Part shown: piece by piece, positions 60,898 to 62,026 of the stretch
Layout of the letters: every line of letters starts with the position of its first letter
Numbering within the stretch: position 1 is the first letter of the stretch
DNA from: Escherichia phage RCIP0319
Sequence record: PV464738.1
Length of the DNA: 64,000 nt
Reading direction: 5' to 3' (one strand)
The notes under the pieces: model-generated
The model's input: only the letters and a program-made list of their open reading frames with translations
What the model was told of the DNA's origin: nothing
Database searches by the model: none
Program-made: the position numbers and the translations under genes

Positions 60898-61101
60898 TTC
60901 GACCAGCCAGCAGCGGCTAAGTCATTGATTTGCATAACAAGCGGCAAAAGGTATGGATTTCTTTTATACGTATCAAACAGTACACCAAGCACCACGGTCC
61001 GCTATTCATTAAGCATTGTGATTTATGTACGTTTACAGCCAATTTGAACATCAATCTGCACTTGAATATAATGTTCAATCATTGTATAATTCACACTATT
61101 A

Positions 61102-61996
61102 ATTTGCACTATGGGATTTGCACTATGAGTCAAGATTATGTAGCAATGCCTGAAGACTTTGAAGACCCGCGATTTGCAGAGCATAATCAGGCATTATTCG
61201 ATGAGTTCATCGACCTTGTTATTCAGGGCCATGACATGCGCGCAGCTTTTGCACTAGTATTTGGCATGGAGGTTGCGACCGATAACTACACTGGCCAGCG
61301 AATCCTCTGCACGCAACGCAATCCGTACTACAAGATGCGCTACAAAAAGCGTATGGAAGAGATGCCATTGAAGGAATTGTGGAGCGTAAAGAGTTCCATC
61401 CACAATTTAGTGAAGCTTGTGTGTGATCCAGAAGTCGCGGCATCAGCCAAGCTTAATGCCATTCGTGAACTGAATATCATCTACGGCATCACAATGATTG
61501 ATGAAAATGGCAATAGTAAAATGGGCCGTTCCATGGATGATTTTTACAAGGATTTTGGAGAGGCGGCCAAAGAAGGAGAGCAATTCTCCCGCCACTAGCC
61601 AATTTGCACTATAAAATGGCCCTAGAACACATTTTCTCCACTTCTAGGGCCATCGGTAATACGACGGGGAAGGTTGCAATCATAAACGCGTTAGAAAGTG
61701 TATTATTATAAGTCATCTTTTAGTCACTTTACGTAACAATTTACGACCCTCCGCCGTCCAGTCGAACGACTCCACCAGCAGATTTGCACTATAACCTAAG
61801 ACGATGCGCCCTTTCTCGTTATCGACCCGCCAACAAGTCTCAAATAGCATTCGATTTGCGCTATTAACTATCGCCGCAACGCGCGTTGGGTAAGCGCAAT
61901 TTGCACTATGGTCGTAAAGGGATAAGGTGCGACCACTTCCGATGGAAAACATAGCGATGAGAATAAGCGTATTCATAAGCCACCAATTTGCACTAT
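61102..61996 (+). repeat. Array of seven copies of an 11-bp direct motif ATTTGCACTAT (six perfect, one degenerate)
   Basis: Copies at 61102, 61116, 61602, 61782, 61854 (degenerate), 61899 and 61986, all in the same orientation; one copy overlaps the ATG of the gene at 61125. Confidence 0.7.
61125..61598 (+). CDS. Hypothetical protein
   Basis: 157 aa from an ATG embedded in an ATTTGCACTATG motif. Confidence 0.4.
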   Translation: MSQDYVAMPEDFEDPRFAEHNQALFDEFIDLVIQGHDMRAAFALVFGMEVATDNYTGQRILCTQRNPYYKMRYKKRMEEMPLKELWSVKSSIHNLVKLVCDPEVAASAKLNAIRELNIIYGITMIDENGNSKMGRSMDDFYKDFGEAAKEGEQFSRH

Positions 61997-62026
61997 GAAA
62001 AGCGACCACGAAGGGCCGCCATTCGA

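What the first reader, a model, noticed from the sequence alone, without database searches (positions are those of the whole stretch)
61100..62000. Array of seven ATTTGCACTAT direct repeats at a module boundary
Seen in sequence: the 11-mer occurs seven times in the same orientation within 900 bp (two copies 14 bp apart at 61102/61116, then 61602, 61782, a degenerate 61854, 61899, 61986), mostly inside a 428-bp convergent intergenic region; four copies end in ATG and one supplies the start codon of the gene at 61125. The ORF-track entry 61713-62009 is probably a repeat artefact. Inference: too short and irregular for CRISPR; candidates are binding sites for a phage regulator or terminase small subunit (pac region), an origin, or phage-specific promoters. 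Coding sequence to the right of the array looks compositionally different.
Basis: partly seen in the sequence, partly recalled or inferred. Interest (0 to 1): 0.6.

Follow-up and report, generated by a model that had tools for sequence, protein, structure and literature searches.

The report
One-way repeat array beside phage terS
A short DNA word (ATTTGCACTAT) is repeated seven to nine times, always pointing the same way, around the small-terminase gene just inside the physical end of this E. coli phage genome, and the same one-way array is kept in distant relatives, so it is a real but still unassigned DNA signal, most likely for genome packaging or end processing.

Summary
There are six exact copies and one 1-mismatch copy of ATTTGCACTAT, all on the + strand at 61102-61996, with none elsewhere in 64 kb. 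Two 2-mismatch copies lie at 61089 and 61247.

The window is a Wifcevirus, an E. coli myophage. By homology to records with mapped ends, the left physical terminus is at about 60765. The array therefore lies 325-1230 bp inside the ~3.7-kb direct terminal repeat. It brackets a gene homologous to the solved E217 small terminase (TerS).

The core (A/T)TTTGCACTA(Y) is kept as a strictly one-way array (95 copies to 0) at the same place in nine lineages. These are Wifcevirus, Kylevirus and uncultured relatives. In most of them it is interleaved with co-oriented Chi sites. Myosmarvirus has the same terminal repeat and terS layout but lacks the array.

Function is inferred only. My ranking is:
- a polar packaging signal, either a TerS loading array or a termination array (about 0.35);
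- origin iterons (about 0.2);
- a Chi-like end-processing signal (about 0.2);
- an operator (about 0.1).

Promoters and CRISPR are rejected. No description of the motif was found in the paper library.

The parts
61089..61099 (+). Degenerate copy ATTCACACTAT (2 mismatches). It overlaps the -10 element and start site of the second terS promoter.
   Evidence: invariant in 11 Wifcevirus sequences
61102..61112 (+). Exact copy 1, in the terS 5' leader.
61116..61126 (+). Exact copy 2, 14 bp after copy 1. Its last two bases start the terS ATG (61125-61127).
61247..61257 (+). Degenerate copy TTTTGCACTAG inside the terS coding sequence.
61602..61612 (+). Exact copy 3, 4 nt after the terS stop codon. It overlaps the T-tract of the - strand terminator.
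61782..61792 (+). Exact copy 4, inside the conserved - strand gene, where it is read as Y-S-A-N. It lies 2 nt after a Chi site.
61854..61864 (+). Copy 5, ATTTGCGCTAT (1 mismatch). It is exact in most relatives and is read as N-S-A-N.
61899..61909 (+). Exact copy 6, read as H-S-A-N.
61986..61996 (+). Exact copy 7, in the short spacer between the two - strand genes, just upstream of the ribosome-binding site of the 87-aa gene.
61772..61779 (-). Single Chi site (GCTGGTGG on the - strand), oriented for RecBCD entering from the left genome end. Relatives have 5-9 such sites in this zone.
61125..61598 (+). terS, the small terminase subunit (157 aa).
   Evidence: PDB 7UXE 'Small terminase', E 1e-31; annotated TerS in phage Mansfield
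61044..61090 (+). Two overlapping sigma-70-type promoter matches (TTGAAC-17-TATAAT and TTGAAT-17-TATAAT) reading into terS.
   Evidence: consensus match only
61618..61651 (-). G+C-rich hairpin between the convergent operons. It is followed by a T-run only on the - strand.
   Evidence: read from the sequence; annotated as a terminator in WFC
61713..61976 (-). Conserved 87-aa gene (signal peptide, two Cys) that carries three motif copies in frame.
62027..62653 (-). 208-aa gene (phrog_4730), conserved in the terminal repeat. Relatives carry one to three motif copies in it, including a tandem pair in its linker.
60765..60765 (.). Inferred left physical terminus, that is, the start of the ~3.7-kb direct terminal repeat.
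   Evidence: homology to Mansfield PhageTerm ends and to the WFC/WFH record starts

Best explanation
The array is a conserved, strictly one-way set of protein recognition sites. It lies in the first ~1.3 kb of the direct terminal repeat and brackets the small-terminase gene.

I think it most likely serves genome packaging. Under this reading, TerS (a ring oligomer with HTH domains) or the translocating terminase reads the co-oriented sites. This would either load terminase next to the cut at the repeat boundary, like lambda cosB next to cosN, or tell a terminase arriving from the right that the terminal cut is near, like lambda cosQ.

What is shown:
- the sites exist and are non-random;
- they are polar;
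- they are conserved across genera;
- they lie next to the physical end and next to terS.

What is inferred: which protein binds the sites, and what the binding does.
For: 1. Non-random cluster: 7 copies at up to 1 mismatch, plus 2 more at 2 mismatches, within 900 bp and none elsewhere in 64 kb.
2. Position: the terminus maps to 60765 by homology to Mansfield (PhageTerm) and to WFC, WFH and Kyle. All of these records start 357-361 bp before the terS ATG.
3. The flanked gene is TerS. TerL lies about 8.6 kb away. The DNA site of this TerS family is unknown (PMC9611059).
4. The core GCACTA is on the terS-sense strand 95 times and on the other strand 0 times in nine lineages whose TerS is only about 41% identical. 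Individual copies turn over while density is kept.
5. Within Wifcevirus, motif columns vary less than their surroundings: 5% against 13-16%, Fisher p about 0.05.
6. From established knowledge: the recognition sites of lambda, SPP1, P22 and P1 lie in or next to the terS gene. DNA wrapped on a ring of identical subunits would present direct repeats.
Against: 1. Myosmarvirus has the same terminal repeat length, the same terS position and a Chi cluster, but no such array and no substitute array.
2. Spacing is irregular (13-486 bp), which fits ring wrapping poorly.
3. A different, lineage-specific set of repeats sits symmetrically around the cut site itself. That set is a better candidate for the cleavage signal.
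4. In the Kylevirus group no copy lies between the terminus and terS.
5. E217 TerS showed no appreciable DNA binding in vitro.
Confidence: 0.35

Rival explanations
1. Replication origin. The copies would be iterons bound by an initiator that opens nearby DNA.
For: TTTGCACTA is a recurrent iteron core. Among the first 120 IMG/VR hits, 15 arrays had an 18-27 bp period, against 0 for a permuted control word. Those arrays sit in the linker of HTH_36/DnaD_N-type initiator genes next to a DnaC-like loader, where they are read as GSAK/VVQN. Wifcevirus genes likewise read the motif as xSAN, and some strains carry a tandem pair in the linker of the 208-aa gene. An AT-rich tract lies about 260 bp upstream. 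In relatives the VapE-like helicase gene lies just upstream of this region.
Against: There is no regular or helical phasing; spacing runs from 13 to 486 bp. No HTH_36-like protein was found in the window, and neither TerS nor the 208-aa protein resembles one. Myosmarvirus and Pbunavirus have the same replication genes but no array.
Confidence: 0.2
2. A Chi-like polar signal, or the partner of Chi. The sites would be read by an enzyme that tracks along DNA from the exposed left end. That enzyme could be RecBCD itself, another nuclease-helicase, or a phage recombination or end-protection factor. The array would protect the first-entering end or drive recombination between terminal repeats.
For: The pattern is that of Chi: strict co-orientation, irregular spacing, indifference to coding, and clustering within 2 kb of a DNA end. 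The array shares its footprint with Chi clusters that are correctly oriented for entry at the left end. In Kyle, 9 of 15 genomic Chi sites lie in the first 2 kb. PA1 has 7 and the uncultured lineages 5-8. Lineages carry Chi only (Myosmarvirus), both (Kylevirus group) or almost only the motif (Wifcevirus, L262), as if the two were interchangeable. Terminal Chi clusters are an accepted phage strategy (PMC12315714).
Against: No enzyme is known to read this sequence. The motif is on the strand opposite to Chi, and as an 11-mer it does not resemble Chi. The array lies about 1.9-3.3 kb from the right end as well, because it is in the terminal repeat.
Confidence: 0.2
3. Operator sites for a transcription regulator of the early genes in the terminal repeat, possibly including terS autoregulation.
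For: In Wifcevirus three copies cover the start site, leader, ribosome-binding site and ATG of terS, directly after two strong sigma-70 matches. L262 has five copies from -112 to -5. Overproduced E217 TerS is harmful.
Against: The Kylevirus group has no copy at the terS promoter. Most copies lie inside genes, far from any promoter. Strict co-orientation and up to 14 copies per kb are not typical of operators.
Confidence: 0.1
4. By-product of a repeated peptide (x-Ser-Ala-Asn) in the small - strand genes, or plain chance.
For: Three or four copies sit at homologous codons of a conserved protein.
Against: Copies also lie in non-coding DNA, in terS on the other strand and after its stop codon. 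The Ser-Ala-Asn codons are almost always AGT GCA AAT. No shuffle reached the observed count.
Confidence: 0.03

Closest known systems
Lambda cosB (gpNu1 R sites) and cosQ (from my own knowledge)
   Same: These are short protein-recognition elements lying between or next to the terminase cut site and the terS (Nu1) gene. cosQ is read in one direction by the moving terminase.
   Different: Lambda has three R sites within about 120 bp, not all in one orientation, plus an IHF site. Here 7-14 co-oriented copies spread over 1-1.5 kb and run through genes. The genome has long direct terminal repeats, not cohesive ends. Binding by TerS has not been tested.
P1 pac (seven TGATCA/G hexamers) and SPP1 pacL/pacR boxes (from my own knowledge; SPP1 and P22 are also covered in PMC9611059)
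   Same: Repeated short words in or beside the terS gene mark where packaging starts.
   Different: Those sites are compact (about 160-270 bp) and flank the cut. This array starts 325 bp or more from the cut and is far longer.
Terminal clusters of co-oriented Chi sites in phages LLS, MD8 and P1 (PMC12315714)
   Same: One-way, irregularly spaced short words are concentrated near one genome end. In Kylevirus and Myosmarvirus real Chi clusters occupy exactly this zone.
   Different: The 11-mer is not Chi, lies on the other strand, and has no known reader.
Iterons inside HTH_36/DnaD_N-type phage initiator genes (found here in IMG/VR contigs L035, L045, L074, L111 and others)
   Same: They share the 9-mer core TTTGCACTA, direct orientation, and tolerance inside coding DNA, where they are read as S-A-K/N or V-V-Q.
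   Different: Those arrays are tight tandems of 3-5 units with a 21-23 bp period, inside the initiator's own gene. No such initiator was found in this phage.
T7 short repeat arrays next to the terminal repeat, and repeats in the T5 terminal repeat (from my own knowledge, not checked here)
   Same: Direct-repeat arrays lie close to the ends of phages with direct terminal repeats, and their function is poorly defined.
   Different: The sequences are unrelated and the phage groups are different. I recall this resemblance from memory only.

Membership tests
TerS recognition site (pac / cosB type) | Lies in or next to the terS gene and near the terminase cut | tested here: met
   Copies bracket terS (61125-61598). 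The terminus is inferred at 60765.
TerS recognition site (pac / cosB type) | Present wherever the same TerS family and end structure occur | tested here: not met
   Myosmarvirus has the same ~3.56-kb terminal repeat, with terS about 380 bp from the boundary, but has 0 copies and no substitute array.
TerS recognition site (pac / cosB type) | Bound specifically by TerS and required for packaging | not testable with these tools
   Needs EMSA or DAP-seq and packaging assays. E217 TerS bound no DNA in vitro.
Iteron-type replication origin | Tandem repeats at a regular, helically phased period beside an AT-rich unwinding element | tested here: not met
   Spacings are 13, 14, 131, 355, 180, 72, 45 and 87 bp. 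The nearest AT-rich tract (60720-60830) is about 260 bp away.
Iteron-type replication origin | A cognate initiator is encoded by the element | tested here: not met
   No HTH_36/DnaD_N-like ORF was found in the window (best E 5). hhalign probability against TerS and the 208-aa protein was below 1%. The HMM was home-made from 10 sequences, so its sensitivity is limited.
Iteron-type replication origin | Sequence resembles known iterons | tested here: met
   TTTGCACTA forms 15 short-period arrays in viral contigs against 0 for a permuted control.
Chi-type polar signal | Strict co-orientation, irregular spacing, indifference to coding, clustering toward a DNA end | tested here: met
   95:0 strand bias in nine lineages. 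All copies lie within about 1.8 kb of the left end.
Chi-type polar signal | Is the host Chi octamer, or is recognised by RecBCD | tested here: not met
   The sequence is not GCTGGTGG and lies on the opposite strand to the Chi sites. Recognition by RecBCD itself cannot be tested here.
CRISPR array | Repeats of 23-50 nt at a regular period with unique spacers | tested here: not met
   The unit is 11 nt and the spacing runs from 13 to 486 bp.
Promoters (sigma-70, or T4 MotA-box type) | A -10 element at a fixed distance downstream, and an orientation that matches the genes served | tested here: not met
   No promoter match starts at a copy. No TAnnnT lies 11-13 bp after any copy (read). Copies 4-6 are antisense to the gene they lie in.

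The most novel reading that the evidence does not exclude
The array is a second, previously unknown polar 'Chi-like' signal carried by phages at the genome end that is exposed first. It would be read by an end-tracking enzyme, either RecBCD through another channel or another host or phage helicase-nuclease. It would be functionally interchangeable with terminal Chi clusters. That would explain why related lineages carry Chi only, both, or almost only the motif.
Probability: 0.13. Interest if true: 0.85.

Novelty: new variant of a known kind. Interest (0 to 1): 0.55.

Why it matters
The small terminase family to which this phage's TerS belongs has a solved structure (E217, a relative used in experimental therapy cocktails) but no known DNA target. 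A review suggests it might package without a specific site. A conserved, one-way site array wrapped around the terS gene, a few hundred bases from a defined genome end, gives a concrete sequence to test.

If TerS binds it, that would explain how these terminal-repeat phages choose their DNA.

If it does not, the array's Chi-like layout and its coexistence with real Chi clusters point to a new kind of end-processing signal.

In either case the array marks the physical start of Wifcevirus and Kylevirus genomes. It can therefore help to orient assemblies that are currently deposited with arbitrary start points.

Tried and rejected
- CRISPR: rejected on unit length and spacing.
- Sigma-70 promoters at the copies: none in the scan.
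- T4 MotA-box middle promoters: TTTGCACTA resembles TTTGCTTTA, but there is no -10 element 11-13 bp downstream (read).
- Sigma-54, DnaA box, IHF, marbox, Tus/Ter and EcoKI sites: compared by eye from memory, with no convincing match.
- RNA-level role: unlikely, because copies lie on both sides of a convergent terminator on one DNA strand, and some lie upstream of the terS promoters in relatives.
- Search for an HTH_36-type initiator in the window and in relatives: nothing found. Profile-profile comparison with TerS and with the 208-aa protein: nothing found.
- Pfam on eleven window proteins, seven in or next to the terminal repeat and four in the replication module: no domain for TerS, the 87-aa protein or the 208-aa protein.
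- Analogous arrays of another word in Myosmarvirus, Pbunavirus SN, Carpasinavirus FoX7 and Salmonella phage PCSE1: none found beyond Chi.
- Pseudomonas Chi (GCTGGCGC) cluster near terS of phage SN: none.
- Literature: no paper in the library mentions the motif in a phage context. The E217 terminase paper itself was not held.
- A same-phase-modulo-3 pattern among the Wifcevirus copies is not general across lineages.

Full report
**Observation.** The 11-mer ATTTGCACTAT occurs six times exactly and once with one mismatch (61854, ATTTGCGCTAT). All copies are on the + strand between 61102 and 61996, and there are none elsewhere in the 64-kb window at up to one mismatch. Dinucleotide-preserving shuffles gave a mean of 1.8 matches and never 7. 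At two mismatches, two more copies fall inside the cluster: 61089 ATTCACACTAT and 61247 TTTTGCACTAG. The other two-mismatch hits are scattered singly through the window. Four copies are followed by G, and the terS start codon uses the end of the 61116 copy.

**What the window is.** The region is 91-95% identical to Wifcevirus phages of E. coli and Shigella, including WFC, WFH, ECML-117, FEC19, Mansfield and Bas98-101. Mansfield carries a PhageTerm-predicted direct terminal repeat of 3673 bp starting at its base 1. WFC and WFH were reported with terminal repeats of about 3.7 kb (PMC6563267). In Mansfield, WFC and ECP_WGS_SA1 the homolog of the gene at 61125 starts at base 361. Aligning the start of Mansfield to the window puts the left physical terminus at 60765. 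The array therefore lies 325-1230 bp inside the left end of the terminal repeat. The right boundary of the repeat (about 64437) is outside the window.

**Genes around the array.**
- *terS.* The gene at 61125-61598 matches PDB 7UXE 'Small terminase' at E = 1e-31 over nearly its whole length. Phage Mansfield annotates it as TerS. Homologs occur in about 330 further phage records, including Pbunavirus, Kylevirus, Myosmarvirus and Carpasinavirus. A review of small terminases states that the E217 TerS gene lies about 58 kb from TerL, that the protein is a decamer, and that it showed no appreciable DNA binding in vitro (PMC9611059). In Mansfield, TerL lies about 8.6 kb from terS.
From its ATG at 61976 it encodes an 87-aa protein with a signal-peptide-like start and two conserved Cys residues. 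It has homologs in Pantoea phages Kyle and PA1, so it is a real gene. It reads the reverse complement of the motif in frame as x-Ser-Ala-Asn. The middle frame of the reverse complement contains a TAG stop.
- *The 208-aa gene.* The gene at 62027-62653 (phrog_4730) is conserved in the terminal repeat of Wifcevirus, Kylevirus and Myosmarvirus, and beside terS in Pbunavirus SN.
- *Signals.* Two sigma-70-type matches (61044-61072 and 61062-61090) read into terS, and one at 62750-62723 reads into the - strand operon. A hairpin at 61618-61651 separates the convergent units.

**Conservation.** Within Wifcevirus the copies sit at fixed positions. Relatives have up to three more:
- one upstream of terS;
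- one or two in the linker of the 208-aa gene;
- one near that gene's 5' end.

Motif columns vary in 5% of positions, against 13-16% around them, with Fisher p of about 0.05.

The stronger evidence comes from distant relatives. In Pantoea phage PA1 the TerS is 41% identical, and in Pantoea phage Kyle this region is 63% identical to PA1 at the DNA level. In both, the core GCACTA with a T-rich 5' side occurs 13 and 14 times on the terS-sense strand between terS and the 208-aa gene, and never on the other strand. In the whole Kyle genome, 14 of the 19 + strand GCACTA lie at 477-1478.

Six further uncultured lineages were reached through homologs of the 208-aa protein. They show 8-13 copies on the terS-sense strand and none on the other. 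Over nine lineages the count is 95 to 0. The consensus is A-T-T-T-G-C-A-C-T-A-Y. Individual copies come and go, but the density and the zone are kept.

Myosmarvirus has the same terminal repeat (3559-3566 bp), with terS about 380 bp from the boundary, but has no copy at all. Pbunavirus SN, Carpasinavirus FoX7 and Salmonella phage PCSE1 also lack the array.

**Chi.** In the same zone the relatives carry clusters of the E. coli Chi octamer, always on the - strand:
- Kyle has 9 in the first 2 kb, out of 15 in the genome;
- PA1 has 7;
- the uncultured lineages have 5-8, except L262 with none;
- Myosmarvirus has 4-5;
- this window has 1, two bases before the copy at 61782.

This is the orientation that RecBCD recognises when it enters at the left end. 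The rule is stated in PMC12315714, which also describes terminal Chi clusters in LLS-type lambdoid phages and in P1. The motif and Chi share one footprint and both are polar, but they lie on opposite strands. Lineages carry Chi only, both, or almost only the motif.

**A lead from unrelated phages.** A scan of IMG/VR for two TTTGCACTA words 30-60 bp apart returned the Wifcevirus contigs. It also returned many unrelated contigs in which the word is the core of 21-23-bp tandem arrays. There were 15 such arrays among the first 120 hits, against none for a permuted control word. These arrays lie in the linker of genes with an HTH_36/DnaD_N-type N-terminal domain, next to a DnaC/IstB-like ATPase. 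They are therefore iterons inside replication-initiator genes, read as GSAK/GSAN and VVQN. No such protein was found in the window or in relatives. Neither TerS nor the 208-aa protein resembles that domain. The replication genes of the phage are a RepB'-type primase (46536-47618) and a VapE-like helicase (48928-50598).

**Other repeats at the terminus.** A 17-nt inverted repeat, ATCTTACGGATGATACG, at 60690-60706 and 60830-60846, flanks a 123-bp AT-rich tract with the terminus near its centre. More copies of TACGGATGATACG lie on both sides. Kyle has a different set in the same place. This lineage-specific, symmetric set is the better candidate for the cleavage signal itself, or for an origin.

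**Interpretation.** The facts to explain are:
- a non-palindromic 10-11-bp word;
- 7-14 copies per 1-1.5 kb;
- perfect co-orientation;
- irregular spacing;
- indifference to coding;
- position next to the genome end and around terS;
- coexistence with Chi;
- restriction to one clade.

I rank a packaging role first (0.35). Recognition sites of known small terminases lie in or beside terS, the layout cut site - repeats - terS mirrors lambda cosN - cosB - Nu1, and a polar array could also act like cosQ for a terminase arriving from the right. The absence from Myosmarvirus, the irregular spacing and the separate repeats at the cut site weaken this reading.

An origin (0.2) is supported by the iteron analogy. 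It is weakened by the spacing and by the missing initiator.

A Chi-like or Chi-partner signal (0.2) fits the pattern best in form, but it has no known reader.

An operator role (0.1) fits only Wifcevirus and L262, where copies cover the terS promoter and leader.

Promoters, CRISPR, chance and a pure peptide-repeat by-product are rejected.

**Novelty.** No paper in the library mentions the motif in this context. The BASEL and Korf papers on Wifcevirus, searched for mentions of the genus, the two phages, terminal repeats and promoters, gave no passage about it. It is an undescribed variant of the known class of cis-acting repeat arrays near phage genome ends. Its main value is as a testable candidate DNA target for a structurally known small terminase.

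Noticed in passing
window 60624-60897 (core 60690-60706 and 60830-60846): A 17-nt inverted repeat, ATCTTACGGATGATACG, flanks a 123-bp AT-rich tract with the inferred physical terminus (60765) near its centre. Further TACGGATGATACG copies lie on both sides. Kyle has a different repeat set (GAATATCCGAA, GGTTATT) in the same place. It could be the terminase cleavage signal or an origin.
   Followed up: partly
L257 (Kyle) 255-1972; L009 (PA1) 2861-4433; L012/L013 (Myosmarvirus); L260, L261, L263-L265: Clusters of 4-9 co-oriented E. coli Chi sites on the strand that RecBCD reads when entering at the left genome end, all inside the first ~2 kb of the terminal repeat. In Kyle this is 9 of the 15 Chi sites in the genome. 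The window keeps only one (61772-61779). Terminal Chi clusters are known for LLS-type lambdoids and P1, but the papers I searched gave no mention for these myophages.
   Followed up: partly
L035 3456-3545, L045 7455-7567, L074, L111, L127, L055, L131, L112, L091 and others (IMG/VR contigs): TTTGCACTA is a recurrent core of 21-23-bp iterons embedded in the linker of HTH_36/DnaD_N-type replication-initiator genes in many unrelated viral contigs. There were 15 such arrays, against 0 for a permuted control word.
   Followed up: partly
L034 7606-8190, L026, L119, L046, L060 (IMG/VR contigs): Arrays with a 66-bp period whose ~36-nt repeat CTACTAyACTGGTGCGAwTTTGCACTAGTCTAAAAC alternates with unique ~30-nt stretches. 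They look like CRISPR arrays on viral contigs and are unrelated to the finding.
   Followed up: no
window 62027-62653 (- strand): A 208-aa protein conserved in the terminal repeat of Wifcevirus, Kylevirus and Myosmarvirus, and beside terS in Pbunavirus. The model shows a SAP-like three-helix N-domain, a disordered acidic linker and a confident C-domain with weak similarity to a homing-endonuclease DNA-binding part. It is possibly an early DNA-binding protein.
   Followed up: partly
window 60867-60873, 60911-60917, 60941-60947; L257 126-161; L266 102-221: Short words GCGGCAA and CAGCGGC recur, always on the + strand, in the ~360-bp leader between the terminus and terS in Wifcevirus, Kyle and the Myosmarvirus MTx. 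They may be group-wide signals.
   Followed up: no
L001 (Mansfield) 3540-3880: At the right boundary of the terminal repeat (3673) there are three ATCATTATGC-like repeats. Two copies of AAATTTGCAGTACACT lie just outside the boundary, followed by a run of CCCACGA heptamers. This stretch is outside the window.
   Followed up: no
L024 1520-1544, L067, protein P0112: Some Wifcevirus strains carry a tandem pair of motif copies 14 bp apart in the linker of the 208-aa gene, read as DSANCVVQN. The spacing is the same as that of the pair at the terS start. The window lacks this pair.
   Followed up: partly
window 60509-60577: Three imperfect 27-nt units (TTTTGGA...) at a 21-bp period, in the apparently non-coding stretch upstream of the terminus.
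   Followed up: no
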